A DNA stretch of 24,993 nucleotides from a virus (taxonomy: Duplodnaviria; Heunggongvirae; Uroviricota; Caudoviricetes). The notes under the pieces are model-generated. The model was not told the origin of the DNA. It saw only the letters and a list, made by a program, of their open reading frames with translations, and did not search any database. The stretch spans positions 1 through 24,993 of IMG/VR virus record IMGVR_UViG_2778261537_000018; one strand, given 5' to 3'. Shown here one piece after another: positions 1 through 24,296 of this stretch. A program made the position numbers and the translations under genes. Position 1 is the first letter of the stretch. The number at the start of each line of letters is the position of its first letter.

Positions 1-1719
1 ATGATTTTTAGGGATAGCTTGAGAGTATTACCTTATGGTCGAGTAGATAATGATTTCTTCCAGATAGAAGAAAGACGTTCATGGAATGCAGGGCGATATT
101 ATTGGTCTAATAGAAGGATTTTTGGTTATATTGGAATTACTCAATCCAGTAATAAAGAGCTGAAAGATAAGTCGGGGAGAGAGGGATTCATAAGAAACCA
201 GGCTGCAAGAGAACTGAAAACTATTATATCTAATTTGTTAACTGAACTTGCTGATAGATTTTTTGGTTCACGTTCTGATGACCGTAAAGAGCTTTTAGAA
301 CAAGTTAAGCGTGAAAAAGAGTTAAGAAAATCTGCTCAACAACAAGCTCGAAAATCAACACAAAAAAGTTTTTCAGAAGCTTTGAAGAATCAGACACCAG
401 TTCTTGATGCTTCCTTGGAGGCTGTTAAAAGGCTGAAAACTAAGCTTGATAAAACTGATGGTTCGTTAGATTTAAACTATCTTAAAATTATAGACAGTGA
501 TCTTACAAACTTAGATGCGTTGCGCAGTGAAATTAAAACGCCTATCAAACCTCCAAAACTTGGAATGTATGAAGAGAAATATAGAGACTACAGAGATAAA
601 TTTAATGAGTTCTCTGCGTATATTCTACAAATGAAGTTAGCAATTAATAAACTTGATTCTGAATTAAATAAACTTGAGCCTTCATTGTCAGCGAAAAATC
701 ACCTTGAAAAAAATCAAGGTATTATTAATTCTAAACTAACTAAGTTTAATAACACGATAGAGGAGAAGATACATTCTCTTTTAAAAAAATGGGCCGATGA
801 AATAAAGGTTGATCGAAGTGATTATTATGCTAAAACTATATCAGTTGTTGATTCAATAGATAATGATTCACAAATTGAAAATGTGTTTAATTTGCTCGAT
901 AGTTTATATGTTGAGTCAGTTGATACCCTAATTTTCAAATATCAATCAATAATAAAAGGTCTCGATAGATTATTTGAAGGTATAAACTTAGATTCAGCAT
1001 TCTCATTATCTGAAGAAGAACGCTCATATTTTGAAGAAAAAGCTAAAAGTTTAAACGCGCTTGCACAGTTAGGTATTAGTGTTGAGATAATATCTCATGA
1101 ACTTGAAGAAATGGATTCTATGGTAACCAGAGGACTAAACTCTCTTCCTACTTCTGTAAAAGAACACCCTGGTTTTTCATTGGCGTTAAATGCTCACAGA
1201 TCGCTTACTCAACAAATACGTTTCTTATCACCTTTGAAAATATCAGGTTATCAATCCAGGCAGAGAATAACTGGAAAAAATATCATGGATTATGTCCTGA
1301 AGTTCTTTGGGGAGCGTTTCGAACGGCAACGAATAACTATTGAATTTAGTGAAGAGTTTAAGCAAATCGCAATAACAGATATACCATCAAGGATCTATCC
1401 TGTTTTTACTAATATTATCAACAATGCAATGTATTGGGTCAGTCTGTCAAATAATAGGCTCATAAAGATTGGTTTTGTGAATTCTTTGGTTATCATAGCA
1501 AATTCTGGTCCGGCAATTGATACCGATGATATCCCGCGACTATTTGAACTATTTTATAGCAAAAGAGCAAATGGACATGGGGTAGGTCTGTATCTATGTC
1601 GAGAAAACCTTGCTGTTGCACATCATAAAATATGGTATTCAGAACCTGATGAAGGCGATAACTATTTAATAAAAGATGGCGCTAATTTTGTGATCCAGTT
1701 CAATGGAGTGGAGTTCTAA
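1..1719 (+). CDS. Cytoplasmic histidine-kinase-like protein: coiled-coil N-terminal half, HisKA-like H-box, C-terminal HATPase_c (GHKL) domain
   Basis: ATG at 1, stop TAA 1717-1719. H-box-like IISHELEEM about 100 aa upstream of N-box NIINNAMYW; degenerate G1 box NSGPAID, F-box LFELF, G2 box GHGVGL. N-terminal half is K/E/L-rich (coiled-coil-like) with no obvious hydrophobic TM segment. Both window ends coincide with start codons, so the gene is probably complete. Confidence 0.6.
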   Translation: MIFRDSLRVLPYGRVDNDFFQIEERRSWNAGRYYWSNRRIFGYIGITQSSNKELKDKSGREGFIRNQAARELKTIISNLLTELADRFFGSRSDDRKELLEQVKREKELRKSAQQQARKSTQKSFSEALKNQTPVLDASLEAVKRLKTKLDKTDGSLDLNYLKIIDSDLTNLDALRSEIKTPIKPPKLGMYEEKYRDYRDKFNEFSAYILQMKLAINKLDSELNKLEPSLSAKNHLEKNQGIINSKLTKFNNTIEEKIHSLLKKWADEIKVDRSDYYAKTISVVDSIDNDSQIENVFNLLDSLYVESVDTLIFKYQSIIKGLDRLFEGINLDSAFSLSEEERSYFEEKAKSLNALAQLGISVEIISHELEEMDSMVTRGLNSLPTSVKEHPGFSLALNAHRSLTQQIRFLSPLKISGYQSRQRITGKNIMDYVLKFFGERFERQRITIEFSEEFKQIAITDIPSRIYPVFTNIINNAMYWVSLSNNRLIKIGFVNSLVIIANSGPAIDTDDIPRLFELFYSKRANGHGVGLYLCRENLAVAHHKIWYSEPDEGDNYLIKDGANFVIQFNGVEF

Positions 1720-1720
1720 T

Positions 1721-3469
1721 ATGACAGTGGCAAATTATAATTCTCTTGTCCAGAAAACTTTCTGCGAAAATGCAATTCGTTCCGTTGTCATGATTGATGA
1801 CGATTTTCTGACGTATTCTGAATCAATCAGGGCGTTGAATAACGAAGTTGATTTAGACTACAACAAAATTGACTCATCTAAACGAGCCGCTACTCTTGAG
1901 AGCTTTTTTCAATCTAAAAATATGATTTGTGATGTTGACAATGGTTCTGTTAATTTCGATGTGGATCGGATTAGAAAATCAGATCTTATTATTGTAGATT
2001 ATCATCTTGATAATAATGCACCTGATAAAACACTTAAACTATTACAAGATTTGAAAGACTCCGATCATTTAAATATGATTGTAATATATACTAGAGAGAA
2101 TTTAGAAACGGTTTGGATGCAGATATCATCGACTCTCAAAGGTGCTCTGGATATCAACAGCTTGATCATTGACTACGATAATGAAGATGTCCAAAGTTAT
2201 TGGGAAGACGTTGTATTACCGAACTTAAATGATAATGGTAATAAAGCTCTCACAAGAGATGAAACAATAGCCTATATTAAAGACAGTAAGCCTTGTAGAA
2301 GAATTAAAAGATTAATACATGATGATGCTGTGTTGGAGGATCAAAAGGATAAAAACTTCATTGCAAAAATGATTGCAGAATATGCTGTGTCTAGAAATGC
2401 AATTATTTCTAGCAACACATCTGGCTATGTCATTCGGGGTGATGAAAGCGGAGTAAAATGGATTCAATGTGGTAATATCTTTGTCTCCCTATTTCATAAG
2501 GTTCAAGATGATCATGAAAACGATGGAGATAGGATTTGGCAAACTCTCAATGATTCTCTCATTGAATGGAAACCATCTTATTATCAGTTAATAAAATCTG
2601 AAATTCAGAATGCAATCGAAGCTGAGGCTTTATCTTTTGTAAATCATTTGGCTAACGATCATTACGGTCAAGCTGCGTGGTTAAATGAGATATTAAAATC
2701 AGACTCGCCTGATATTAGATGTAGAAATATTGACTTTGTATTTGGTAATTTATCAGAAGAGCTTTATCAAAGACTTAAAAATAATAATACGCTGGATGAA
2801 TTTATCAAAAGTGTTTTTGATAGCTATTCAAATGAATACGCTAACAGCGGAGTTGCTGCATTGCTCCAATATTGCTCTTCAAAAATGGATCTGCCATCAA
2901 ATAATGATACTTATCACGAAATGTATCATGCTTTAAATATGAATTTGTCTTCAAAGAATTTTGAAGATGGTCATATTTCTACTGGCACTATTTTCTTTGA
3001 TACAGAGTCGAACAAATGGTATTTATGTGTGTCTGCGGCATGTGATTTGGTTCCTACTCAGGGTAACGACCCTCACCATGTAAGATTAAGTCCGCACAGG
3101 CTCATTAAAGTTCTGGAGCTTTTTAACGCCAGTCAGAGTAAAGCATTGCCATTTGCTGAACATTCGAAATATATATATGTAATGCATAAAAATCAAAGAA
3201 AATATCTCTCTATTTTCGAAGGGGATAAAACGCTTCCTGTTGTTGATTATATGGTGGTGTTGAATCATGGAACAACAGTTGATGGCGAAGAAAAAAATAT
3301 TATTTCTGCCGTGTTTTTAAGTAATATGGATGGCAACGTGCAAAATGTTCCTGTCCGACTCAAACTTAAATCTCAACTGAGAACTGGTTATGCAGAAAGA
3401 TATCAGGCTATAGCGTCTCAGTATAGCTCAAGGATTGGTGTGGATTATGTATCAATGATGCTACCATAA
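1721..3469 (+). CDS. Receiver (REC) domain protein with large uncharacterised C-terminal domain
   Basis: ATG 1721 preceded by GGAG at 1709-1712, immediately after the upstream stop (operon-like). N-terminal about 120 aa show REC hallmarks: VVMIDDD (acidic pair), DLIIVDYHLD (phospho-acceptor Asp position), MIVIYT (conserved Thr), then Lys. The remaining about 450 aa have no motif I recognise. ORF track start at 1703 overlaps the upstream gene; 1721 preferred. Confidence 0.6.
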   Translation: MTVANYNSLVQKTFCENAIRSVVMIDDDFLTYSESIRALNNEVDLDYNKIDSSKRAATLESFFQSKNMICDVDNGSVNFDVDRIRKSDLIIVDYHLDNNAPDKTLKLLQDLKDSDHLNMIVIYTRENLETVWMQISSTLKGALDINSLIIDYDNEDVQSYWEDVVLPNLNDNGNKALTRDETIAYIKDSKPCRRIKRLIHDDAVLEDQKDKNFIAKMIAEYAVSRNAIISSNTSGYVIRGDESGVKWIQCGNIFVSLFHKVQDDHENDGDRIWQTLNDSLIEWKPSYYQLIKSEIQNAIEAEALSFVNHLANDHYGQAAWLNEILKSDSPDIRCRNIDFVFGNLSEELYQRLKNNNTLDEFIKSVFDSYSNEYANSGVAALLQYCSSKMDLPSNNDTYHEMYHALNMNLSSKNFEDGHISTGTIFFDTESNKWYLCVSAACDLVPTQGNDPHHVRLSPHRLIKVLELFNASQSKALPFAEHSKYIYVMHKNQRKYLSIFEGDKTLPVVDYMVVLNHGTTVDGEEKNIISAVFLSNMDGNVQNVPVRLKLKSQLRTGYAERYQAIASQYSSRIGVDYVSMMLP

Positions 3470-3540
3470 TTATTATATTTTAGGCGTGGTGATTTTTTTT
3501 CGCCATGCCTATTTTATATTTATCATCACAATGATGTTGT

Positions 3541-3957
3541 TTATTTTTGTTTAAGTCTTCTAAGCTTCATGCATTCTAATGAGAATAATAATAGAGTTGT
3601 GCTGTATATAAAGCCAGAGTTAGTTAATAACTTTAAATTTAATGCTTCAGGATTTTCACTGAGAAAGTGAAAGGCATAAACTAAGTATACAGCTAAAGTA
3701 GCCGTTCCAATTGTTGGTCCAATATCGCCTTGATCATGAGGTTCAAGGTTTACATTGAACTTGAAGATTAGCCATTCAAATCCCCAAGTAAAAAAAACAA
3801 CTAATATCATGGCTGCGAATAATTTCGCGATGTTATCTGCTGATGGATTCATCAGAACAGATTGTTTCTGAAAAAATTCACAAAGTGAGAGTCCGAAAAA
3901 AATAAAAAAAAGTGGTCTGGAACTAAATTTTTCAAAAACTTTGAATAGGGTTTCCAT
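3541..3957 (-). CDS. Small hydrophobic protein (about 4 predicted TM segments), function unknown
   Basis: 138-aa ORF 38 bp downstream of the P4-type int on the same strand; hydrophobic stretches FFIFFGLSL, AAMILVVFFTWGF, ATLAVYLVYAF, FIYSTTLLLF; weak SD (GAAGGT) upstream of ATG at 3957. Confidence 0.4.
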   Translation of the reverse strand: METLFKVFEKFSSRPLFFIFFGLSLCEFFQKQSVLMNPSADNIAKLFAAMILVVFFTWGFEWLIFKFNVNLEPHDQGDIGPTIGTATLAVYLVYAFHFLSENPEALNLKLLTNSGFIYSTTLLLFSLECMKLRRLKQK

Positions 3958-3995
3958 TTTCTTTACCTTCAGGATTATATTAGCTATTCTGATAC

Positions 3996-5225
3996 TTAGG
4001 CTACCAGAGCATTTGATCTTTGAGCTTGAACGTAATCACTCCACCATTGCATCAAACTCTGTCGCTCTATCAGATATTCTGCACGATTGTATGCTGCGAT
4101 AATTTCATCTTTTTTCGAGTGGGCAAGCGCTGCCTCAAGAACTTCAGCTCTGAATTTACCAGACTCCTCTGCCGCTGTTCGTGCAATAGAACGCATACCG
4201 TGAGCTACAAGCTCGCCTCCGAACCCCATTCGGATGATAGCTGCGTTGGCTGTTTGTTCATGCATATGATTAAGAGGCGCTTTTATGCTGGGGAAAACCC
4301 ATTCTCTATGCCCACTTATTGATTTCATTAATTCAAGGATGCGCAAAGCTTCTTTACTCAAAGGAACTTTGTGAAGCTTTTTCATTTTCATGAAATCAGC
4401 AGGAATGTTCCAAATGCTGTTGGTTGTATCAATATCAGACCACCTTGCGCGAACGGCTTCACCCGGACGAACCCATGTCAACAATTGCCATTCAATTAGC
4501 ATACGTGTTTCCAACCGGATTGACGCATTCGTCAAAGATTCCATAAACCTTGGCAATTCGCTTGGGGGAAGGGCAGGCATATTTTGCTTTTTTGGTTTAC
4601 TGAATCTTTGACCAAGGTTGTCAGCCGGGTTGAACTCAATAAGTTCTTCAGTAGCTGCCCACCGGAAGATTTCATTCAGACGTGAAATGATACGGCGTAG
4701 AGTTTCCAATACGCCTCGTTGCTCAATAGGATCAAGGTGTTGTTTTAAGAGCTTAGGTCGGATCTCATTGATAGGGACATTACCCAGACCGGGAAAGACA
4801 TTTCTCTCTAAGCTGCGCCAGATGTCTGCTGCATGGTCTTGTGAGATACCTGATGTCTTTACCTTCTCATCTAACCATTTCCGCGCTACGGCTTGGAGAG
4901 TGTGCTCAGTAGCACTCTTTAATGCCTTCGCCTTATCGTTGTTATGGATTTGGGGATCAACACCATTTGCCAGAAAGGAGAGATATTCATCACGTAAGGC
5001 TCTGGCTCTTGCAAGGGTAAGGTGAGGATATGTCCCAAGGCTCATTTTGGTTCTTTTCTTGCTCACTGGTACTGCATACCTGAAATACCAATTTTTCTTG
5101 CCTCCTTTCGCCAAAGGAGCGATTCGTAGAATCAGACCATCACCGTCAAACAAGTTGATTTCTTTATCGGCTGGCTTGGTGCTTTTGATTTCAGTGTCAG
5201 TGAGCTTCTTAGCGATTTTTGCCAT
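3996..5225 (-). CDS. int: P4-type (CP4-57 IntA-like) tyrosine integrase
   Basis: N-terminus MAKIAKKLTDTEIKSTKP... with the arm-binding (DUF4102-like) signature of P4-family integrases; C-terminal catalytic region HGMRSIARTAAEE...AHS...YNRAEY. Start taken at the internal ATG (5223-5225) rather than the ORF-track start 5267. Sits next to the ssrA-derived 45-bp repeat, as intA does next to ssrA in E. coli K-12. Confidence 0.85.
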   Translation of the reverse strand: MAKIAKKLTDTEIKSTKPADKEINLFDGDGLILRIAPLAKGGKKNWYFRYAVPVSKKRTKMSLGTYPHLTLARARALRDEYLSFLANGVDPQIHNNDKAKALKSATEHTLQAVARKWLDEKVKTSGISQDHAADIWRSLERNVFPGLGNVPINEIRPKLLKQHLDPIEQRGVLETLRRIISRLNEIFRWAATEELIEFNPADNLGQRFSKPKKQNMPALPPSELPRFMESLTNASIRLETRMLIEWQLLTWVRPGEAVRARWSDIDTTNSIWNIPADFMKMKKLHKVPLSKEALRILELMKSISGHREWVFPSIKAPLNHMHEQTANAAIIRMGFGGELVAHGMRSIARTAAEESGKFRAEVLEAALAHSKKDEIIAAYNRAEYLIERQSLMQWWSDYVQAQRSNALVA

Positions 5226-5390
5226 TTTGGGACCCTCGGTTTTTGGACCCTTCTTAGTGGGTCCCATTCAGGGTGCCATAACTCGTAGTTCTCAGCAATT
5301 CTCACTGGACGACAATAGACGTAAAAAAGCCCGCAGAGCTTGTGCTGTGTGGGCTTAGTAGACTTCATTGAACTTCAAACAACTAAAAAG

Positions 5391-5435
5391 TGGTGGAGCT
5401 GGCGGGAGTTGAACCCGCGTCCGAAATTCCTACAT
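5391..5435. repeat. 45-bp direct repeat identical to the 3' end of ssrA (att site between tandem elements)
   Basis: tggtggagctggcgggagttgaacccgcgtccgaaattcctacat is identical at 5391-5435 and 23934-23978 (the 3' end of the intact tmRNA gene); sequences diverge immediately beyond on both sides. Confidence 0.85.
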
Positions 5436-5527
5436 ACTATTATTAATGGTTGAGATGCAATAATTTATCAATATTATCATTGATTTAGTGTTTTGGCGTA
5501 TTAGCAAGTGTTATGCATTTTTACTCT

Positions 5528-5550
5528 TCTGTCGCCATTTTGCCGCCACT
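5528..5550. repeat. 23-bp direct repeat, left copy (tctgtcgccattttgccgccact)
   Basis: Exact 23-mer also present at 23865-23887, same orientation; each copy lies just inside the 45-bp ssrA repeats. Confidence 0.8.
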
Positions 5551-5643: not shown

Positions 5644-7386
5644 ATGAAAACACAGAAATTCGTAAGTGAACTTTTTTTAGAAAATGGGCAGTTTATTCTA
5701 GTTGGCTTAACTGGAAGAACTGGTTCTGGTTGTACTACAGCAGCAACTATTTTAGAAAGTAATGAGACAGTATTTCCCGATGTGGATAAATTAACTGATT
5801 TTTATAATGGTTTAGATTTACAGCGTTATAAGATAGTTAAGGATTTCACTGAGAATCATTGGGAGGCATTTTACTCAATCAAGGTTAGTGACTTGCTATC
5901 AGTTTATTTGTTAGCAATGTCACATACTGAACTTTCACACTTCATCACGTCGTCAACTAAAGATAGCATTGATGAAGATAAATTAAACAAGATACTTAAT
6001 GAAGGAGCATTTTCAAAAACACAACTTAGAAAAATAAGGACGGATATATTAAAAGCACTTATTGATCATAGTCAAGAATTAGATCTCGATAATCTAGATG
6101 TATCTAACATAAGAAAAACATTGCATTTGGTTAGGTTTTTCACTAATAACTTCAAAAAAGAACTTAATGAGATAAATACAGGTCTTTATGTATCAACTTA
6201 TCAGGCCGCTGGAAAATCTGTTAGACGGCTTGGTGAAGTAAAAACAAACTATGAAACAGAAGAATTTGATCCAAAATCGGTATTTCATTTGCCTGAAACT
6301 ATTAATAGGGTCATTAAGCTAATTAGAAAAAGCCAAGGTGGTAAGGCATTAGTAGTTATTGATGCTATACGTAATCCATATGAAGCTAAATTCTTTAAAG
6401 ATAGATATGCTGCATTCCATTTGGTATCAATTAATGCTCCTGATGAGCATAGGAAAAAATATTTACAGAAGCTACACAAGTTTTCATCTGAGCGCATTAA
6501 ACACATTGATGATATTGAATCAGGAAAAGGAGATAAAGACAATCAATATAAACATTTAACGAACCCTAATGTAACGAAATGCATAGAAATTTCGGATATA
6601 CATCTTTATAATCCTAAAAATGAGTTTGATAACAATAACATACTTAAAGCACAACTTGCATGGTATATCGCTCTAATGAAGCATCCTGGATTGATCACTC
6701 CTACAGCGATGGAGCGAGTTATGCAGGTCGCATATACTGTTAAATTAAACTCTGGATGTATATCGAGGCAGGTCGGTGCCGTTGTTACAGATAATGATAA
6801 TTCAATTAAATCAGTTGGTTGGAATGATGTAGCTAAAGGGCAGATACCATGTTCAATGAGATCACTCGATGGGTTGATCAATGATTTTGATTCGAAAGTA
6901 TATAGCTCATATGAGCGAAATGATGCTCTTTTTAGAAAGAAAGCTAAAAGTAATTTAATAAAGTTTAGAGCGATTGAATCAAGCTCTGAAATTTTTAAAG
7001 GACGTAATTTGTCATATTGCTTCAAGGATATTCATAATAGTCTTAATGATGATAAAAAAGGGAATCAGGTCCATACCAGAGCTTTACATGCTGAAGAAAA
7101 TGCCTTTTTACAATTATCTAAATATGGTGGCGTTGGTGTCCAAGGTGGTAAGTTGTATACTACAGCAAGTCCTTGTGAACTTTGTGCAAAAAAAGCATAT
7201 CAATTAGAGGTCGCTGAAATAATTTTCATTGATCCTTATCCGGGTATTGCACAAGATCATATTATTAATATAGGTAATAATCCACCTAAATTAATTCAAT
7301 TTAGAGGGGCAATTGGTAAATCATATCATCGATTATATGAACAAATTATTCCTATGAAAGATGAGTTGGATTATTTATCAATGTAA
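5644..7386 (+). CDS. P-loop kinase-like domain fused to cytidine/deoxycytidylate deaminase domain (AvcD/DcdV-like anti-phage dCTP deaminase architecture)
   Basis: N-terminal Walker-A-like GLTGRTGSGCTT; C-terminal zinc-deaminase signature HAEENAF...SPCELCAKK (H-x-E and PC-x-x-C). Start placed at ATG 5644 (GGGGA 3-7 nt upstream); in-frame alternatives at 5632 and 5488. AT-rich relative to phage backbone. Stop 7384-7386 is 9 bp from the convergent int stop. Confidence 0.65.
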   Translation: MKTQKFVSELFLENGQFILVGLTGRTGSGCTTAATILESNETVFPDVDKLTDFYNGLDLQRYKIVKDFTENHWEAFYSIKVSDLLSVYLLAMSHTELSHFITSSTKDSIDEDKLNKILNEGAFSKTQLRKIRTDILKALIDHSQELDLDNLDVSNIRKTLHLVRFFTNNFKKELNEINTGLYVSTYQAAGKSVRRLGEVKTNYETEEFDPKSVFHLPETINRVIKLIRKSQGGKALVVIDAIRNPYEAKFFKDRYAAFHLVSINAPDEHRKKYLQKLHKFSSERIKHIDDIESGKGDKDNQYKHLTNPNVTKCIEISDIHLYNPKNEFDNNNILKAQLAWYIALMKHPGLITPTAMERVMQVAYTVKLNSGCISRQVGAVVTDNDNSIKSVGWNDVAKGQIPCSMRSLDGLINDFDSKVYSSYERNDALFRKKAKSNLIKFRAIESSSEIFKGRNLSYCFKDIHNSLNDDKKGNQVHTRALHAEENAFLQLSKYGGVGVQGGKLYTTASPCELCAKKAYQLEVAEIIFIDPYPGIAQDHIINIGNNPPKLIQFRGAIGKSYHRLYEQIIPMKDELDYLSM

Positions 7387-7395
7387 GTCTGTACA

Positions 7396-8409
7396 TTATA
7401 AAAAGTTGAGTGGGTTTTTATAAACTGCGTCTTCAAGATGATCTGGTGAAAAGTGTGAATATACCATGGTCATCTTGATATCAGAATGACCCAAAATATC
7501 TCTCAAAACAAGTATGTTTCCGCCGTTCATCATAAAATGACTGGCGAAAGTATGGCGTAGCACATGAGTGCATTGTCCCGCTGGTAAGTCTATATTGGCC
7601 CGCTTCACTGCTCGTTCAAAAGCTTTTCTGCATGGCGTGAACAGCTTCCCCCTGTTTTTGGGTAGTTCGTCGTATAGCTCCTGAGATATCGGTACAGTTC
7701 GGTTTTTCTTGCCTTTGGTTTTGGTATAGGTGATCCGATATTTTGATAACTGATGGCCTTGAAGGTTTTCGGCTTCACTCCACCGCGCGCCGGTAGCTAG
7801 GCATACCTTTGCGATCATCAATAGGCTAGGGCTTTGAGAATCAGCGCAGGCATCAAGCAGGCGTTTAATTTCGTCCAAGGCTAAGAATGCCAATTCACCC
7901 TCTGCGATTTTGAATGTCGGTAGCCCGGCGAGTGGGTTAGGCGCTGACCAGTGGCCCAACTTCTTCAGGGTGCCAAAAACGGATGATAAGTTACGCTGTT
8001 CAAGGTTTACCGTGCGTGGTTTTACTGGCGACATTAGCGCGCCTTCTTCGTTACGTACCTCTCCTTTCAACCGTGCTTCACGATATTTCGTAAAGTCACC
8101 GGCGGTTAATTCAGAGGCGACGGGATCGCCTAGGCCATTGCAGATAATATTCAGTTTCGCCATCAGGCGCTTGGGGTCTGCGAGCGTCTGGCCGTAAAGG
8201 GAGTGCCACTGCTCAATCAATTCTGACAAACGCCGCCGATCTTCCTTTTCACCCAGCCACGGCTTTTTGTTCACTTGATCCATGGTGAAGTTTTCGAATG
8301 CTACAGCCTCGCCCTTTGTCGCAAATTGCTTGCGCACGCGCTTGCCGTCACGCCCGTTCGGGTAACACTCGCACAACCATTTTCCGTTCGGCTGTTTTCT
8401 GATGGTCAT
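7396..8409 (-). CDS. int: P2/186-type phage tyrosine integrase
   Basis: 337 aa; N-terminal ...NGKRVRKQFATKGEAVAFE and C-terminal HVLRHTFASHFMMNGGNILVLRDILGHSDIKMTMVYSHF (catalytic His/Arg/Tyr region). Start ATG 1 nt after the cI stop on the same strand (translational coupling). Confidence 0.85.
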   Translation of the reverse strand: MTIRKQPNGKWLCECYPNGRDGKRVRKQFATKGEAVAFENFTMDQVNKKPWLGEKEDRRRLSELIEQWHSLYGQTLADPKRLMAKLNIICNGLGDPVASELTAGDFTKYREARLKGEVRNEEGALMSPVKPRTVNLEQRNLSSVFGTLKKLGHWSAPNPLAGLPTFKIAEGELAFLALDEIKRLLDACADSQSPSLLMIAKVCLATGARWSEAENLQGHQLSKYRITYTKTKGKKNRTVPISQELYDELPKNRGKLFTPCRKAFERAVKRANIDLPAGQCTHVLRHTFASHFMMNGGNILVLRDILGHSDIKMTMVYSHFSPDHLEDAVYKNPLNFL

Positions 8410-8410
8410 A

Positions 8411-9043
8411 TCAAAGGCTCTTAATGATTTTCAATGCGCGGCCAACAACCTCGATATCATCCAGGCTGCACTCAAACGAAGAATCATCTTGATGTACAAC
8501 TAATCTGTTTCCGGGAAGGCGAGTTAGCTTAACAATGCTTTTTATCCCGTCGATATCGACCAACCACATCCCATTCACTGGTAGTGTCTGGTTACGGTCA
8601 ATTAAATATGAATCGCCATTGGTATTTACGAGAAGTAGCTCGCTTGAGTCAGGGGGAAGCAGGCTGCTATCAATGATGGCCTTCCCGGCTTCAATCAACG
8701 AACCTCCGATAAGGCTAGCCTTATCGATCTCTGGCGATACAAGCTCAGAAAGTGGTTTTACTTTGCTAGAGTTCACGAAATTGATACTTTTTCTATCATC
8801 AATTTTTGTTCCTGGTTCGCCTTGTCCTGTAGTTAGCCAGAGTAATGAAACGCCTGTTTCAAGAGCGCATTGGATCACCCATTCTGCAGGGAAGCTATCC
8901 CTTAAGTATCTGTTTGCCATAGTGCTTTTAGATGCGCCTAAGTGATCGCATAGCTGCTGTCGGGACTTGAAATCATAGGCAGCCATCAACCTATGGATAG
9001 CCTCTCTACCCCCTGTATTCTCGCCAGCCTTCACCTGTATCAT
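8411..9043 (-). CDS. CI-like phage repressor (186 cI-like, HTH N-terminal domain)
   Basis: 210 aa immediately upstream of int on the same strand; HTH-like segment QQLCDHLGASKSTMANRYLRDSFPAEWVIQCALETGVSLLWLTTGQG; position and orientation match the 186 cI-int operon. Confidence 0.7.
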   Translation of the reverse strand: MIQVKAGENTGGREAIHRLMAAYDFKSRQQLCDHLGASKSTMANRYLRDSFPAEWVIQCALETGVSLLWLTTGQGEPGTKIDDRKSINFVNSSKVKPLSELVSPEIDKASLIGGSLIEAGKAIIDSSLLPPDSSELLLVNTNGDSYLIDRNQTLPVNGMWLVDIDGIKSIVKLTRLPGNRLVVHQDDSSFECSLDDIEVVGRALKIIKSL

Positions 9044-14662: not shown

Positions 14663-14851
14663 ATGCAGGACTATTTTTTGGAGTCTTTGAAGCTCCAGCG
14701 CATTGATTTTTTTCTTAAGCTTGTAGCGGCCAGTGAGTGTAGTGATGAAGAGAAGGGACTGGCTCTGCAGTGGGTTTCTGAATTGACTGATGAACTCATG
14801 GCAAAAATCAGAAGCCACGAATACAACCGCTCAATGGATGTCATCAGCTGA
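14663..14851 (+). CDS. Small SOS-controlled phage protein (possible N-terminal part of a Tum-like antirepressor)
   Basis: 62-aa ORF with strong SD AGGAGG 5 nt upstream and LexA box in its promoter region; followed 10 nt later by the DinI-like ORF in another frame. Confidence 0.45.
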   Translation: MQDYFLESLKLQRIDFFLKLVAASECSDEEKGLALQWVSELTDELMAKIRSHEYNRSMDVIS

Positions 14852-14861
14852 GGTGACTTTT

Positions 14862-15095
14862 ATGCGCATTGAAATAATGATCGATAAAGAGCAGAAGATT
14901 AGCCAGTCTACCCTGGACGCCCTTGAATCCGAGCTTTACCGTAATCTGCGCCCCCTGTATCCCAAAACGGTAATTCGTATCCGCAAAGGTAGCTCTAACG
15001 GTGTGGAACTGACCGGACTGCAACTGGACGAAGAAAGGAAGCAAGTGATGAAAATTATGCAGAAGGTGTGGGAAGACGACAGCTGGCTGCATTAA
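14862..15095 (+). CDS. DinI-family protein (phage Tum/DinI-like)
   Basis: 77 aa starting MRIEIMIDKEQKISQSTLDALESELYRNLRPLYP...KVWEDDSWL, closely resembling E. coli DinI (MRIEVTIAK...AGAIDAL...E.WE..D.W); SD GAGGTG upstream. Confidence 0.7.
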   Translation: MRIEIMIDKEQKISQSTLDALESELYRNLRPLYPKTVIRIRKGSSNGVELTGLQLDEERKQVMKIMQKVWEDDSWLH

Positions 15096-15363: not shown

Positions 15364-17187
15364 TTGAAATGTGCACTATTCCCAGCATTGAGTTGTACCA
15401 GATGTCTTTATGGAGGGACTGTGGCTTTTGTAACTGATATTCGGCTTGAAGATAATGCTATTGCTGCACCTGCGACAGCACAGGTTATGGCTCAGAGGCT
15501 AGGATCTGTATTACGTAAGAGATATGAAGAATTCATCCATAAAAGAGAGTGTGCACCAGGCCAAGCAGACTATGATGTAAAAATGGCTAGCAGGGCTTTA
15601 GCCGCATTCACTATGTATCAGTTAGGATGTGTGGATGATAAGTATGCAGGGGAGTCTGTATGTGATAGTAGTGAAGATGGTGGTATAGATGGAATAGCAA
15701 TCAACCATAACGAAAAAATCGTTGTTGTTGTTCAATCAAAATTTCACCAATCGGGAAACGGCACTTGGACAAGAGCCGATTTTATGTGTTTTAAGGATGC
15801 TTGTGAGAAGCTACAAAGTGAAAGATACGAATTATTTGATTCCATATTGCAAAATAAAAGCGGGGAAATAAGTGCGGCTTTAAGTAGTTTTGAATACAAG
15901 TTCATCTTTGCGATGGCGCATACAGGTAAAAAAGGTGCTGCAGAGGAAATATTAAATGATATGCGGGAATGGCAATATCAATTAAACGCTGCAGCTTTTA
16001 CACCTGAGGATGAGCCTAAAGAGAACTGGGGATTTCAGGTTCATTTAATATCCTCTGAAGATATGATGCATTGGTTACAGAATGGCTCTCGAAATCAAAT
16101 TGATCTTAACAGGGTTGAAATTGAGCGTTTTGGATTTTTGAATGAACCATATCAAGCTTTTTACGGGGCTATTAGTGGTGATCAAGTTGCAGAATGGTGG
16201 GAAGAGCATGGTGCTCGATTATTTACAAAAAACATAAGGAATATGCTTGGTAAAACAGAAGTGAATGAGGAAATAAAAAAGACAGCTATAGATAATCCTG
16301 ATATGTTTTGGTTTTATAATAATGGGATTACTGTACTGGTTAAGGAAGTTGTTCCTCATAGACGAAACGCAGCTCCTAATATAGAGAGAGGGATTTTTGA
16401 TTTTCGTGATGTAAGTGTCATTAATGGTGCACAAACAGTCAGTAGTATTGGCGCATGTAAAGATGCGCTTGGTGAAAACATATATAGACTCAAAGTGCCA
16501 GCTAGATTCATTGTTATAGATGATGATACTGATAATTTAACTGCAAATGCAATTACAAAAGCTAACAATTTCCAAAATAGAGTATTGGGAAGAGATTTTG
16601 CATCGCAGCAGGCAGATCAACATAGATTGGCAAGGGAGTTAGTGCTTGAAGGATATCAATATCAGTTACTAAGAACAGATGAAGATCATTCACAGACAAA
16701 TACGAAAGTCATTGACTTGGATGAGGCGCTCAATGCACTCGCATGTTTAAGTAAAAATAATACGGTTGTATCGACACTAAAATCAAATCGCGGTAGGTTT
16801 TTTGAAAATTTTGAAGGCTCTCTATATAAAACTATTTTCAATCCAAGATTAAGTGGTTTAAAACTTATCAATACTGTTCTACATTTTAGAGTTATAGATA
16901 AGTTGATCGGTAAAACATTACTATCAGTAGATAAAACGACCCATAGTCGCAAGCATTTAATTATTACGCATGGTAATAGATACTATGCGTCTGTACTATT
17001 GAGCAACGTTTCTGGGATACATAATAGCTCAGAAATTCTTGTTCCAGATGAAAAAAATCTTTCCGAAGAATTAAGTGCATTAATTCAACGTGCTGAAGAG
17101 TACATTGAAGATAATTACCCGAATGCCTATCCGGCAAGATTTTTTGCAAATCCAACGAAAATACAAGAGTTATACGATAATGTTTAA
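15364..17187 (+). CDS. AIPR-like putative abortive-infection protein with N-terminal PD-(D/E)xK-like motif
   Basis: Long AT-rich ORF between repA and the portal gene (the P2 old/tin cargo position). N-terminal DGGIDGIAI...VVVVQSKF resembles a PD-(D/E)xK (Mrr-like) core; FWFYNNGITVLV and VINGAQT resemble AIPR-family motifs as I recall them. True start uncertain (in-frame TTG 15364, GTG 15421, ATG 15487). Confidence 0.5.
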   Translation: MKCALFPALSCTRCLYGGTVAFVTDIRLEDNAIAAPATAQVMAQRLGSVLRKRYEEFIHKRECAPGQADYDVKMASRALAAFTMYQLGCVDDKYAGESVCDSSEDGGIDGIAINHNEKIVVVVQSKFHQSGNGTWTRADFMCFKDACEKLQSERYELFDSILQNKSGEISAALSSFEYKFIFAMAHTGKKGAAEEILNDMREWQYQLNAAAFTPEDEPKENWGFQVHLISSEDMMHWLQNGSRNQIDLNRVEIERFGFLNEPYQAFYGAISGDQVAEWWEEHGARLFTKNIRNMLGKTEVNEEIKKTAIDNPDMFWFYNNGITVLVKEVVPHRRNAAPNIERGIFDFRDVSVINGAQTVSSIGACKDALGENIYRLKVPARFIVIDDDTDNLTANAITKANNFQNRVLGRDFASQQADQHRLARELVLEGYQYQLLRTDEDHSQTNTKVIDLDEALNALACLSKNNTVVSTLKSNRGRFFENFEGSLYKTIFNPRLSGLKLINTVLHFRVIDKLIGKTLLSVDKTTHSRKHLIITHGNRYYASVLLSNVSGIHNSSEILVPDEKNLSEELSALIQRAEEYIEDNYPNAYPARFFANPTKIQELYDNV

Positions 17188-22715: not shown

Positions 22716-22810
22716 CAGAACGTGCCCCCGCGCACGGGCGGCACGGGGTGGCGAAAGGCACTGCCACATCAAAACCCCGTCCACCGCCCTCTATTTCAGG
22801 AGAAAGCAGC

Positions 22811-23014
22811 ATGAAGTTTGTTGCGCCAGAACAGGCACCGGAACAGGCGGAAATCATCAGAAATACGCCGTTCTGGCCTGATGTGGACCTGTCGGAGTTT
22901 CGCAGTGTCATGCGCACTGACGGCACGGTGACGCAGCCGCGTTTAAAGCAGGTTGACGGTTTTACAACCAGTATTGAACTCGAAGTGAAGATTGATGATC
23001 TTGAAATGGAGTAA
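22811..23014 (+). pseudogene. Truncated head completion/stabilisation gene (P2 gpL N-terminal fragment)
   Basis: ATG 22811 with AGGAGA SD; MKFVAPEQ...FWPDVDLSEFRSVMRTDGTVTQPRL matches the gpL N-terminus; ORF ends after 67 aa whereas gpL is about 169 aa; the next gene is ogr, so the intervening morphogenetic genes are deleted. Confidence 0.5.
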
Positions 23015-23082: not shown

Positions 23083-23301
23083 ATGATGAATTGTCCAAAG
23101 TGTGGTCATGCGGCACACACAAGGAGCAGTTTTCAAGTAACTGAAAGCACCAAAGAGCGTTACTGCCAGTGCCAAAATATTAACTGCGGGAGTACTTTTG
23201 TTACCCATGAAACAGTGGTCCGGTTTATTGTGACACCCGCACTGATTGCTACTGCTCCTCCACATCCATTGCCAGGTGGTCAGGGGCATATGAATTTTTG
23301 A
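23083..23301 (+). CDS. Ogr/Delta/B-family zinc-finger late-gene transcriptional activator
   Basis: 72 aa from ATG 23083: MMNCPKCGHAAHTRSS...TKERYCQCQNINCGSTFVTHETVVRFIV...PHPLPGGQ, near-colinear with P2 Ogr (CPLCQHAAHARTS...KERYHQCQNVNCSATF...PHPLPSGQ). Confidence 0.8.
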   Translation: MMNCPKCGHAAHTRSSFQVTESTKERYCQCQNINCGSTFVTHETVVRFIVTPALIATAPPHPLPGGQGHMNF

Positions 23302-23327
23302 GAAAGAGAACCTGCTACGGCAGGTTT

Positions 23328-23810
23328 TTATTCATCTGGGATCTCACCCGTTTCAAGAAAATGTATAAAGCCAGGCTCATCTATGATGATTGTGCCTTTC
23401 ATCCTGGCTGCCGATACTTTTGATGGGCCTGCATTGTAACCGCAACAGAGCATCTGAAGGCTTTGGGTTACAGAGGTTCTTACCGTTAATCCTTGTTCAT
23501 TCGCCTTATCAACCAATCTTTCTTTATCTGCTTTCTTAAATCCGGTGAAACACACATCGAATGTATTTTTTTTCGGACCAGACTGCTTGGTGAGATGTGA
23601 GTAGTTTTCGGGGAGGAATGACGCGCACTCCTGAATGGCTTGTTCTGGTGAATCGTACTGTTTAAGAATGCGGTCTTTTCGGAAGGTTTTTATTCGATCG
23701 GTGTTCTTACAAATGCCCTGTATATGATTTTCGCTATAACTGATGCTCTGTATAGAGTGAACACCGATACGACCATTTGCATTGATGTAAACAAAGTGAA
23801 GTTCTTCCAT
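23328..23810 (-). CDS. Small WYL-like / BRCT-domain protein, function unknown
   Basis: 160-aa AT-rich ORF between ogr and ssrA. C-terminal 75 aa fit a BRCT fold pattern (CFTGF...RLV...GLTVRTSVTQSLQMLCCGYNAGPSKVSAARMKGTIIIDEPGF, compare LigA BRCT VLTGSL...[41 protein letters not shown]). N-terminal part has an R-x-F-R-x-D-R-I-like motif (KTFRKDRI) reminiscent of WYL domains. Confidence 0.4.
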   Translation of the reverse strand: MEELHFVYINANGRIGVHSIQSISYSENHIQGICKNTDRIKTFRKDRILKQYDSPEQAIQECASFLPENYSHLTKQSGPKKNTFDVCFTGFKKADKERLVDKANEQGLTVRTSVTQSLQMLCCGYNAGPSKVSAARMKGTIIIDEPGFIHFLETGEIPDE

Positions 23811-23864
23811 GTGAAACCTCTTTGCATGATTTCAAGATGGCGACAGGCAAGATAGACGCAAAAG

Positions 23865-23887
23865 TCTGTCGCCATTTTGCCGCCACT
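23865..23887. repeat. 23-bp direct repeat, right copy, forming the 3' arm of a 10-bp inverted repeat
   Basis: tctgtcgccattttgccgccact identical to 5528-5550; atggcgacag (23837-23846) is the exact reverse complement of ctgtcgccat (23866-23875), giving a hairpin with a 19-nt loop. Confidence 0.8.
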
Positions 23888-23933
23888 ACTAAAGAAAAAG
23901 GGGCTACGCTTTCACGTAACCCCTTGATTTATT

Positions 23934-24296
23934 TGGTGGAGCTGGCGGGAGTTGAACCCGCGTCCGAAATTCCTACATCCTCGGTACTACATGCTTAGTC
24001 AGTCTTTACATTCGCTTGCCAGCTGCGGACGGACACGCCACTAACAAACTAGCCTGATTAAGTTTTAACGCTTCAACCCCAGGCAGGGCTTCCACGCGAT
24101 CTCTTTTGGGTTTGACCTCTCTTGATCCCCGTCCTAAGAGCGGAGGCTAGGGAGAGAGGGCTCTAAGCAGGTTATTAAGCTGCTAAAGCGTAGTTTTCGT
24201 CGTTTGCGACTATTTTTTGCGGCTTTTTACGAGGCCAACCGCCCCTCGGCATGCACCTTGGGTTTCGCAAATCCCGTCGAATCCAGAATCAGCCCC
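23934..24296 (-). ncRNA. ssrA: tmRNA (SsrA), intact 363-nt gene
   Basis: Reverse complement reads GGGGCTGATTCTGGATTCGACGGGATTTGCG...TAAAAACTTAATCAGGCTAGTTTGTTAGTGG...GGGTTCAACTCCCGCCAGCTCCACCA, matching E. coli tmRNA as I recall it; lies immediately downstream of smpB on the same strand. Confidence 0.95.

What the first reader, a model, noticed from the sequence alone, without database searches (positions are those of the whole stretch)
23328..23810. Small WYL-like + BRCT protein encoded between ogr and ssrA
An AT-rich, oppositely oriented 160-aa gene occupies the attR-proximal end of the prophage, a position with no gene in P2 as far as I recall. Its C-terminus has a BRCT-like pattern and its N-terminus an R-x-F-R-x-D-R-I-like motif typical of ligand-binding WYL domains, which are common in regulators of defence systems. 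A WYL-BRCT fusion this small is not something I recognise as characterised. It could be a sensor/regulator, an anti-defence protein, or a stand-alone cargo factor.
Basis: partly seen in the sequence, partly recalled or inferred. Interest (0 to 1): 0.6.

Follow-up and report, generated by a model that had tools for sequence, protein, structure and literature searches.

The report
Prophage WYL–BRCT protein beside ssrA
A small, well-conserved prophage gene next to ssrA encodes a WYL domain joined to a DNA-end-type BRCT domain; across many temperate phages it travels with the immunity repressor gene, and its function has never been tested.

Summary
The ORF is real: 23328..23810 (-), 160 aa, between an ogr-like gene and intact ssrA, just inside attR of a deleted 186-like prophage. 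It is under strong purifying selection.

The family is PHROG 2561, labelled "DNA ligase". It has no ligase or nuclease domains.

New here: in Peduoviridae of several genera and in a Pseudomonas lambdoid phage, the gene lies directly downstream of the cI repressor on the same strand (cI-X-int, or cI-int-attP-X as in this lineage). Many relatives carry N-terminal membrane helices. None carries an HTH or a recognisable enzyme domain.

Best reading, inferred: a non-enzymatic binder of ssDNA and 5'-phosphate ends or nicks, expressed with the repressor, most likely excluding foreign DNA. A damage-sensing role in the lysis-lysogeny switch is the main rival.

I found no experimental characterisation. 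Verdict: a new variant of a known kind, of moderate interest.

The parts
23328..23810 (-). CDS, 160 aa WYL-BRCT protein (RefSeq WP_000391794.1-type 'BRCT domain-containing protein'; PHROG 2561)
23649..23810 (-). WYL domain (aa 1-54): five-stranded Sm/SH3-like barrel carrying the conserved Y8 and T42-F43-R44-K45-D46-R47-I48 motif
23562..23648 (-). two short helices (aa 55-73) followed by a lower-confidence linker (aa 74-83)
23346..23561 (-). BRCT domain (aa 84-155) of the RFC1/LigA class. T89-G90, K96 and K131 align with yeast Rfc1 T166-G167, R174 and K209.
23817..23821 (-). Shine-Dalgarno AGAGG, 7 nt upstream of the ATG
   Evidence: read directly
23309..23326 (.). hairpin between the convergent ogr and WYL-BRCT genes, a likely bidirectional terminator
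23865..23887 (.). 23-nt motif TCTGTCGCCATTTTGCCGCCACT in the attP arm upstream of the gene. It is repeated at 5528-5550 on the other arm and conserved in relatives. Probably an Int arm-type site (inferred).
23898..23925 (-). phage-supplied intrinsic terminator directly after the ssrA 3' end. It separates ssrA transcription from the gene.
23934..23981 (.). attR core (3' end of ssrA); the attL copy is at 5391-5438
23083..23301 (+). ogr/Delta-like late activator gene, convergent neighbour
8411..9043 (-). 186-type cI repressor. In the circular phage genome it lies upstream of the gene on the same strand, in the order cI, int, (dCTP deaminase, opposite strand), attP, WYL-BRCT.
7396..8409 (-). prophage integrase

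Best explanation
This is a genuine, selected prophage gene for a two-domain protein with no recognisable catalytic domain. It has an N-terminal WYL barrel, the fold that binds ssDNA in CapW, DriD and PafBC. It has a C-terminal single BRCT domain of the RFC1/LigA class, which grips DNA backbones and 5'-phosphate ends.

It belongs to the lysogeny module of temperate phages. In most lineages it is the gene immediately after the cI repressor, on the same strand and 2-56 bp away, so it is presumably made from the repressor transcript. In this ssrA-integrating enterobacterial lineage the order is cI-int-attP-X. Integration therefore moves the gene to the far (attR) end of the prophage, behind the ssrA terminator.

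Most likely mechanism (inferred, not shown): the two domains together recognise a DNA structure that offers ssDNA next to a 5'-phosphorylated end or nick. Such structures include gapped, nicked or resected DNA, injected linear genomes and rolling-circle intermediates. Having no effector domain, the protein would act by occupancy or by recruiting a host factor.

Three context features favour a lysogenic-conversion or superinfection-exclusion role against incoming or replicating foreign DNA. The gene is co-expressed with the repressor. It sits in an interval known to be a defence hotspot. Many relatives are tethered to the inner membrane.

What is shown: gene reality, both folds, synteny, membrane-anchored relatives. 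What is inferred: DNA ligands, expression, biological role.
For: Coding and selection.

Folds:
- AlphaFold model with pLDDT 92.
- PDB profile hits to the Rfc1 and LigA BRCT domains.
- WYL evidence.

Conserved basic/phosphate residues: T89, G90 and K131 are invariant and K96 is at least 90% conserved. They align to yeast Rfc1 T166-G167, R174 and K209. R174 and K209 are listed among residues lining the DNA channel, and the isolated domain prefers 5'-phosphate ends with ssDNA overhangs (PMC9293009).

The WYL domain is an ssDNA sensor in CapW (PMC11662680).

Synteny:
- Mannheimia PHL101 and Vibrio PV94: cI then X.
- Metagenomic 186-like phage: cI-X-int with 2 and 14 bp gaps.
- Yersinia MLG42: cI-int-attP-X.
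- Pseudomonas lambdoid phage: S24-type cI, a 99-aa ORF, then X.
- One-per-species genome loci: about 16 of 24 same-strand upstream neighbours are CI or HTH repressors of two unrelated C-terminal types.

The cI-int interval of K139-like P2 relatives is a described defence hotspot (PMC9122126). In this window the other attP flank carries a dCTP-deaminase defence gene (PADLOC E 2.5e-140).

Most of the N-terminally extended relatives examined have 1-4 N-terminal TM helices ahead of WYL-BRCT. These forms also sit right after cI.
Against: - No experiment exists for any family member. No paper found characterises it.
- There is no effector domain, and no conserved partner gene downstream.
- PADLOC has no model for the family. 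Only the BRCT part matches the candidate PDC-S48.
- Within E. coli the gene is fixed with its ogr allele (176 versus 175 genomes). It is not swapped for other cargo as true hotspot genes are.
- The arginines that flank the WYL motif and contact ssDNA in CapW (RWHVR) are not conserved here (consensus H-x-Q-G-I-C). The ligand could therefore differ.
- No sigma-70-like promoter was found in the 87 bp between the ssrA terminator and the start codon. Expression in the integrated E. coli prophage is uncertain.
- The 160-aa protein in this window is soluble, not membrane-anchored.
Confidence: 0.4

Rival explanations
1. DNA-damage or ssDNA sensor that tunes the lysis-lysogeny switch. The WYL domain detects ssDNA, and the BRCT domain contacts the CI repressor or another switch component. 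This would be analogous to repressor-plus-sensor pairs such as ImmR/ImmA or CapH/CapP, or to a 'split' HTH-WYL regulator.
For: - Tight, conserved adjacency to cI across two unrelated repressor classes (186-type and S24/LexA-type) and across phage families.
- WYL domains are ssDNA-responsive sensors in DNA-damage regulators (PMC11662680; PMC12041258, listed).
- A 2026 preprint notes cI- and BRCT-encoding modules replacing quorum-sensing modules in Roseobacter prophages and assumes they respond to DNA damage (PMC13345283).
Against: - No HTH fusion was found among about 50 longer relatives. They carry membrane helices instead, which is odd for a repressor partner.
- S24-type repressors already sense RecA*.
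- This prophage carries a DinI-domain (Tum-like) gene.
- In the integrated enterobacterial form the gene is separated from cI by the whole prophage.
- The family also occurs in non-phage islands next to Mrr or AbiGi-like genes.
Confidence: 0.2
2. Helper for the phage's own DNA during establishment or maintenance of lysogeny. It would bind nicks, gaps or ssDNA on the phage or host chromosome. This could damp rolling-circle replication or RecA loading (an anti-SOS, lysogeny-stabilising effect), or protect cos-joined nicks.
For: - Co-expression with cI and int is inferred from synteny.
- In this lineage the gene is linked to the cI-int transcript only in the circular genome, that is, during establishment.
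- The BRCT class recognises nicks and 5'-phosphate ends.
- P2-like phages carry other SOS modulators, such as the DinI-like gene here.
Against: - P2 and 186 establish lysogeny without it.
- Membrane-anchored relatives do not fit a chromosome-bound role.
- A dCTP-deaminase gene on the opposite strand lies between int and attP in this window, so read-through from cI-int is doubtful here.
Confidence: 0.15
3. Anti-defence protein. It would mask phage ssDNA or DNA ends from host sensors that respond to such structures, or act as a decoy of the LigA BRCT domain.
For: - The predicted ligands are the kind of DNA structures some host defence systems are thought to sense (my own knowledge, not checked here).
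- The protein is small and has no recognisable catalytic domain.
- The BRCT domain resembles that of LigA.
Against: - The gene sits in the repressor operon rather than the early lytic operon.
- Membrane-anchored relatives do not fit this role.
- It is also present on non-phage islands.
Confidence: 0.08
4. It is an enzyme, as database labels say: an NAD-dependent DNA ligase (PHROG 2561 and several RefSeq phage records) or an exonuclease (phage Cartapus).
For: Labels seen. NCBIfam LigA and DEDDh exonuclease models give weak hits.
Against: - The hits cover only the C-terminal BRCT segments of those models: LigA positions 549-650 of 652, and exonuclease positions 229-307 of 331.
- The scores are 19.6 and 26.1 bits against cut-offs of 444 and 389.
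- At 160 aa the protein is fully accounted for by WYL, linker and BRCT.
- There is no adenylation, OB, Zn, HhH or DEDD domain.
Confidence: 0.01

Closest known systems
wHTH-WYL-WCX regulators (CapW, BrxR, PafBC, DriD)
   Different: This protein has no winged-helix DNA-binding domain and no WCX domain; a BRCT domain follows instead. The arginines that flank the WYL motif and contact ssDNA in CapW are not conserved. There is no evidence that it regulates transcription.
BRCT domains of RFC1 (p140/Rfc1) and bacterial NAD-dependent ligase LigA
   Same: These are the closest sequence class. The T-G, K/R and K positions line up with yeast Rfc1 T166-G167, R174 and K209. Like them, it is a single BRCT domain rather than a tandem phosphopeptide reader.
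   Different: There are no clamp-loader or ligase modules. DNA binding has not been tested.
PHROG 2561 / RefSeq 'BRCT domain-containing protein' WP_000391794.1, and homologues in phages 500465-1, Cartapus, MLG42, PHL101 and PV94
   Same: This is the same family at full length (E 2e-77; 99% identity to phages 500465-1 and Cartapus).
   Different: The 'DNA ligase' and 'exonuclease' names attached to the family are not supported by its domain content.
Genes carried next to cI in temperate phages (lambda rexAB, K139 glo, and cargo of the cI-int defence hotspot)
   Same: It has the same genomic niche: downstream of the repressor, on the same strand, before or around int and attP. The lambda rexAB and K139 glo comparison is from my own knowledge. 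The hotspot is from PMC9122126.
   Different: The sequence and fold are unrelated. Unlike hotspot cargo, it keeps its place next to cI across genera while the genes after it vary.
Repressor-plus-sensor pairs (ImmR/ImmA, CapH/CapP)
   Same: The gene order is a repressor followed by a small sensor-like protein. CapP is stimulated by ssDNA (PMC13228613, listed).
   Different: There is no peptidase domain here, and no evidence that it acts on the repressor.

Membership tests
WYL domain (Pfam PF13280) | Sm/SH3-like five-stranded beta-barrel fold | tested here: met
WYL domain (Pfam PF13280) | Significant match to the family's sequence model | tested here: inconclusive
   The query alone gives no WYL hit at E<=10. 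However, 6 of 47 close relatives and 20 of 37 longer relatives hit PF13280 (best E 1.5e-7). The N-terminal profile finds only WYL proteins in the PDB (E 4.8e-4 to 0.09).
WYL domain (Pfam PF13280) | Conserved basic motif after strand 4 (R-x-F-R-x-D-R-I) | tested here: met
   K41-T42-F43-R44-K45-D46-R47-I48. T42 is invariant and F43 is at least 90% conserved.
WYL domain (Pfam PF13280) | ssDNA-contacting arginines flanking the WYL motif, as in CapW RWHVR | tested here: not met
   The equivalent strand reads N-H-I-Q-G-I-C-K (consensus H-x-Q-G-I-C). The CapW residues are described in PMC11662680. The register is by strand position only; no structural superposition was available.
WYL domain (Pfam PF13280) | Binds ssDNA or another anionic ligand | not testable with these tools
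   This needs a biochemical assay.
BRCT domain (Pfam PF00533), RFC1/LigA DNA-binding class | BRCT alpha/beta fold | tested here: met
BRCT domain (Pfam PF00533), RFC1/LigA DNA-binding class | Match to the family model | tested here: met
   The query scores 19.5 bits against a gathering score of 21.3. 41 of 47 homologues hit the model. The family profile against the PDB finds Rfc1 at E 2.6e-5 and LigA at 5e-5.
BRCT domain (Pfam PF00533), RFC1/LigA DNA-binding class | Phosphate/DNA-contact residues (T-G after strand 1, a basic residue in helix 1, and the Lys of the G-x-x-K motif) | tested here: met
   T89, G90 and K131 are invariant and K96 is at least 90% conserved. They align with yeast Rfc1 T166-G167, R174 and K209. 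The roles of R174 and K209 are from PMC9293009.
NAD-dependent DNA ligase (LigA; the label on PHROG 2561) | Adenylation (nucleotidyltransferase), OB, Zn-finger and HhH domains | tested here: not met
   Only model positions 549-650 of 652 (the BRCT part) match, at 19.6 bits against a cut-off of 444. The 160 aa are fully taken up by WYL and BRCT.
DEDDh exonuclease with BRCT (NF004719; the label in phage Cartapus) | DEDD exonuclease domain | tested here: not met
   Only model positions 229-307 of 331 match, at 26.1 bits against a cut-off of 389.
wHTH-WYL-WCX transcription regulators | N-terminal winged HTH and C-terminal WCX domain | tested here: not met
   The WYL domain starts at residue 1. No HTH family is found in the query or in 52 longer relatives.
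Known anti-phage defence systems (PADLOC-DB v2) | Full-length match to a system component | tested here: not met
   Only residues 83-153 match the C-terminal end of the candidate PDC-S48 (E 1.8e-7).
Prophage lysogeny-module gene (co-transcribed with cI) | Same strand as the repressor gene and immediately downstream of it | tested here: met
   In this window's lineage the link runs across attP. Transcription itself was not tested.

The most novel reading that the evidence does not exclude
WYL-BRCT proteins are a widespread, unrecognised class of effector-less prophage factors that read DNA structure (ssDNA plus a 5'-phosphate end). They would work in one of two ways. One is as a new kind of superinfection-exclusion protein that captures incoming or replicating foreign DNA, at the membrane in the anchored forms. 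The other is as a RecA-independent ssDNA sensor that feeds DNA-damage information to CI-type repressors. In the ssrA-integrating lineage, integration would additionally switch the gene's transcriptional wiring, because attP lies between it and the cI-int transcript.
Probability: 0.2. Interest if true: 0.75.

Novelty: new variant of a known kind. Interest (0 to 1): 0.45.

Why it matters
WYL domains are currently understood as ssDNA-sensing modules that switch HTH regulators of defence and DNA-damage regulons. Here the same sensor is joined to a DNA-end-type BRCT domain instead. It has no DNA-sequence-reading or catalytic part, and it is kept next to the immunity repressor in temperate phages of several bacterial orders.

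The family is large. The profile search found 2738 cluster representatives at E<=1e-3 and 204 at E<=1e-30. It is mislabelled as a ligase or exonuclease in phage databases.

Working out what it does would fill a blank in the lysogeny module of P2/186-like and other phages. It could reveal either a new exclusion mechanism or a new input to the lysis-lysogeny decision. At the least, the annotation should be corrected.

Tried and rejected
- **Literature.** Searches for BRCT with P2-like prophage, anti-phage defence, lysogen or prophage defence found no characterisation. One apparent hit was 'BRiC', not BRCT.
- **Fusion partners.** I looked for an informative catalytic or HTH partner among 52 longer relatives. 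None was found: only TM helices, duplications of the module, extra BRCT domains, or an unknown C-terminal domain of about 200 aa.
- **Conserved downstream partner.** Downstream neighbours are heterogeneous.
- **Variable hotspot cargo in E. coli.** Rejected. The gene and its ogr allele co-occur almost 1:1, in 176 and 175 of 5426 genomes.
- **Own promoter.** No sigma-70-like site lies between the ssrA terminator and the ATG in this window. Relatives have a TGTAAT box about 22 nt upstream that this allele lacks.
- **Ligase or exonuclease annotation.** Rejected on domain content.
- **Viral-contig scan.** It returned only near-identical prophage ends and gave no help for distant synteny.

Full report
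**Observation**

The ORF is exactly as reported: 23328..23810 on the minus strand, ATG start, 160 aa. An AGAGG ribosome-binding site lies 7 nt upstream (sequence).

On the plus-strand map it lies between an Ogr/Delta zinc-finger gene and an intact tmRNA gene. The ogr gene is at 23083..23301 (Pfam E 1.5e-20). The tmRNA gene is at 23934..24296 on the minus strand, followed by smpB. The ORF is convergent with ogr and shares a hairpin terminator with it at 23309-23326.

The 48-nt 3' end of ssrA is repeated at 5391-5438 and 23934-23981. The element is therefore bounded by attL and attR, and the ORF is the last gene inside attR.

GC content is 41.8% against 55.5% for the late genes. The neighbouring ogr gene is also low, at 46.1%.

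**Is it a gene?**

Yes. RefSeq annotates the same ORF in other E. coli as 'BRCT domain-containing protein' WP_000391794.1 or as 'hypothetical protein'. It occurs in 176 of 5426 complete E. coli genomes.

Full-length homologues run from 99% down to about 30% identity. They are found in Enterobacterales, Vibrionales, Pasteurellales, Pseudomonadales, Burkholderia phages and marine lineages. A profile search of 1.84 billion cluster representatives gives 2738 hits at E<=1e-3 and 204 at E<=1e-30.

Against orthologues from Yersinia, Erwinia, Klebsiella, Plesiomonas and Tatumella, synonymous sites are saturated (pS 0.73-0.90) while pN is 0.15-0.19. This shows strong purifying selection on the protein.

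**Domains**

The AlphaFold2 model, built from a 47-sequence alignment, is confident (mean pLDDT 92). It shows three parts:
- a five-stranded barrel at residues 3-52;
- two short helices and a lower-confidence linker up to about residue 83;
- an alpha/beta domain at residues 85-154.

*C-terminal domain: BRCT.*
- The query's own Pfam hit is just under threshold (E 1e-3).
- 41 of 47 homologues hit BRCT.
- The family profile finds Rfc1 and LigA BRCT domains in the PDB at E 2.6e-5 to 5e-5.
- The best Foldseek hits are LigA and RFC1.

The invariant T89-G90 and K131 and the near-invariant K96 align with yeast Rfc1 T166-G167, K209 and R174. R174 and K209 are named among the basic residues lining the DNA channel. 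The isolated RFC1 BRCT domain prefers 5'-phosphorylated ends with an ssDNA overhang (PMC9293009).

*N-terminal domain: WYL.*
- The query alone does not reach the Pfam WYL model.
- 6 of 47 close relatives and 20 of 37 longer relatives do.
- A profile of the N-terminal domain retrieves only WYL proteins from the PDB: 8bnv_A at 4.8e-4, PafBC at 1.6e-3 and PafC at 3.7e-3.

One caveat applies. The arginines that flank the WYL motif and touch ssDNA in CapW (RWHVR; PMC11662680) are not conserved here.

**What it is not**

The family is PHROG 2561, annotated 'DNA ligase' (E 2e-77). Phage records call it 'DNA ligase' or 'putative exonuclease'.

The NCBIfam LigA and DEDDh-exonuclease models match only through their C-terminal BRCT segments. 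The scores are 19.6 and 26.1 bits against cut-offs of 444 and 389. The 160 residues leave no room for a catalytic domain, so these labels are annotation carry-over.

PADLOC has no model for the family. Only the BRCT part touches the candidate PDC-S48.

**Context in this window**

The prophage is 186-like rather than P2-like. It has int, a 186-type cI (Phage_CI_repr plus Phage_CI_C), cII/CP76, Fil, a Dam-type methylase and gpA. It also has a DinI-domain gene, an AIPR/AbiU-like gene in the old/tin hotspot, and then Q, P, O, N and M.

The prophage is defective. An ORF at 22748..23014 joins about 33 codons of gpL to the last 59 bp of gpD. Intact relatives have D directly upstream of ogr. All lysis and tail genes are therefore gone, and the element is only about 18.5 kb.

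A dCTP-deaminase defence gene lies between attL and int (5645..7386; PADLOC E 2.5e-140). In the circular phage genome, attP is thus flanked by two accessory genes pointing outward. Left of attL is a P4-type integrase from an older ssrA island.

**Context elsewhere: the key new finding**

The gene lies downstream of the immunity repressor, on the same strand, in every phage examined:
- Mannheimia phage PHL101 and Vibrio phage PV94: directly downstream of the CI-like repressor.
- A metagenomic 186-like phage: cI, then X after 2 bp, then int after 14 bp.
- Yersinia phage MLG42, a circular genome whose protein is 73% identical: cI, int, a 287-bp attP gap, then X, all on one strand. This is the arrangement of the window's lineage before integration.
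- A Pseudomonas lambdoid phage: an S24-type CI, a 99-aa ORF, then X.
- Burkholderia P2-like phages: an XRE regulator and one further gene precede it.

In a one-genome-per-species scan I examined 24 same-strand upstream neighbours of at least 80 aa. Eight carry Phage_CI_repr, eight carry HTH_3 and six carry Peptidase_S24. So two unrelated repressor types are followed by this gene, with gaps of 4-56 bp.

The genes after it are heterogeneous. Some family members sit on non-phage islands next to Mrr- or AbiGi-type genes.

Enterobacterial relatives all share the same layout: ssrA 3' end, terminator, a conserved GTGGCGGCAAAATGGCG motif, then the gene. That motif is repeated on the other attP arm in this window and is probably an Int arm site.

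Within E. coli the gene is fixed with its ogr allele (176 versus 175 genomes). It is a stable lineage feature, not swappable cargo.

**Relatives with extra parts**

About a third of the top 150 representatives are longer than the query. None has an HTH or a recognisable enzyme domain. The additions are:
- one to four N-terminal transmembrane helices plus a low-complexity linker, in most of the N-terminally extended ones examined;
- tandem repeats of the WYL or WYL-BRCT unit;
- an extra BRCT domain;
- an uncharacterised C-terminal domain of about 200 aa, which in one genome is a separate downstream gene.

Membrane-anchored forms also sit directly after cI in Pasteurellaceae and a betaproteobacterium.

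**Mechanism**

*Shown:* a selected protein made of a WYL barrel and an RFC1/LigA-type BRCT domain; linkage to the repressor gene; frequent membrane tethering in relatives.

*From published work:* WYL domains bind ssDNA in CapW, DriD and PafBC. This BRCT class binds DNA backbones and 5'-phosphate ends. The cI-int interval of K139-like P2 relatives is a defence hotspot (PMC9122126).

*Inferred:* the protein recognises DNA that offers ssDNA beside a 5'-phosphate end or nick. It is made together with the repressor. Lacking an effector, it would work by occupancy or by recruiting a host factor.

I rank a lysogenic-conversion or exclusion role first, at about 0.4. The reasons are the niche, the AT-rich accessory-gene character, the defence gene on the other attP flank, and the membrane-anchored relatives.

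The main rival, at about 0.2, is an ssDNA/DNA-damage input to the CI switch. The tight pairing with cI and a passing remark in a 2026 preprint (PMC13345283) favour it. The lack of HTH fusions and the presence of membrane anchors weaken it.

Two further roles remain possible: handling the phage's own DNA during establishment of lysogeny, and anti-defence.

Expression in the integrated E. coli prophage is uncertain. The gene lies behind the phage-supplied ssrA terminator, and no sigma-70-like promoter is detected.

**Novelty**

The WYL+BRCT architecture is listed in a 2014 domain survey (PMC4012209), and the family exists in PHROGs and RefSeq. I found no functional study.

The conserved position after cI, the membrane-anchored branch and the mis-annotation are, as far as I can tell from the searchable literature, not described. 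I rate it a new variant of a known kind: a WYL sensor module in a new, HTH-less architecture. Interest is moderate.

Noticed in passing
window 22748-23014 (junction near 22956): The prophage is defective. A hybrid ORF fuses the first ~33 codons of head-completion gene L to the last 59 bp of late-control gene D, deleting all lysis, baseplate and tail genes. The element between attL and attR is only about 18.5 kb. Intact relatives have D directly upstream of ogr.
   Followed up: partly
window 5645-7386 (+): A dCTP-deaminase-type anti-phage defence gene (PADLOC dCTPase, E 2.5e-140; GC 32.5%) sits between attL and int. In the circular phage genome, attP is therefore flanked by two outward-facing accessory genes: this one and the WYL-BRCT gene.
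   Followed up: partly
window 5528-5550 and 23865-23887: An identical 23-nt sequence (TCTGTCGCCATTTTGCCGCCACT) lies on each arm of attP. On the WYL-BRCT side it is conserved in Yersinia, Klebsiella, Citrobacter, Erwinia, Tatumella and Plesiomonas relatives. These are probably Int arm-type binding sites, and they overlap the gene's upstream region.
   Followed up: partly
window 15364-17187 (+) and 14790-15095 (+): An AIPR/AbiU-like abortive-infection gene (GC 36.7%) occupies the P2 old/tin hotspot between gpA and the portal gene. It is preceded by a DinI-domain protein that may be the counterpart of the 186 Tum antirepressor.
   Followed up: no
window 1-5267: An older ssrA island lies in tandem to the left of attL. 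It has a P4-type integrase (3996-5267, -) next to the duplicated ssrA 3' end. It also has two large genes with HEF_HK histidine-kinase/HATPase and Response_reg_2 domains (1-1719, 1703-3469). My recollection is that this pair belongs to a described conflict-system class; no PADLOC model matched.
   Followed up: no
L103 5502-6098; proteins P0129, P0151, P0172, P0178, P0189: An uncharacterised domain of about 200 aa (motif ...DGYAAGW.FAV....LDIK...) is fused to the C-terminus of WYL-BRCT in several marine and Vibrio-type proteins, and is encoded as a separate gene just downstream in one genome. It is a possible functional partner. It has no Pfam match.
   Followed up: partly
L005 3644-3943; L123 and L132 downstream ORFs: A small protein of about 80-99 aa (MSLTKPNQ...) accompanies the WYL-BRCT gene in Pseudomonas prophages. 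It lies either just upstream or just downstream of it.
   Followed up: no
window 23811-23897 compared with alignment A5: Relatives in other enterobacteria carry a TGTAAT box about 22 nt upstream of the start codon. The E. coli allele in this window has replaced that roughly 50-bp segment and lacks the box, so promoter strength may differ between lineages.
   Followed up: partly
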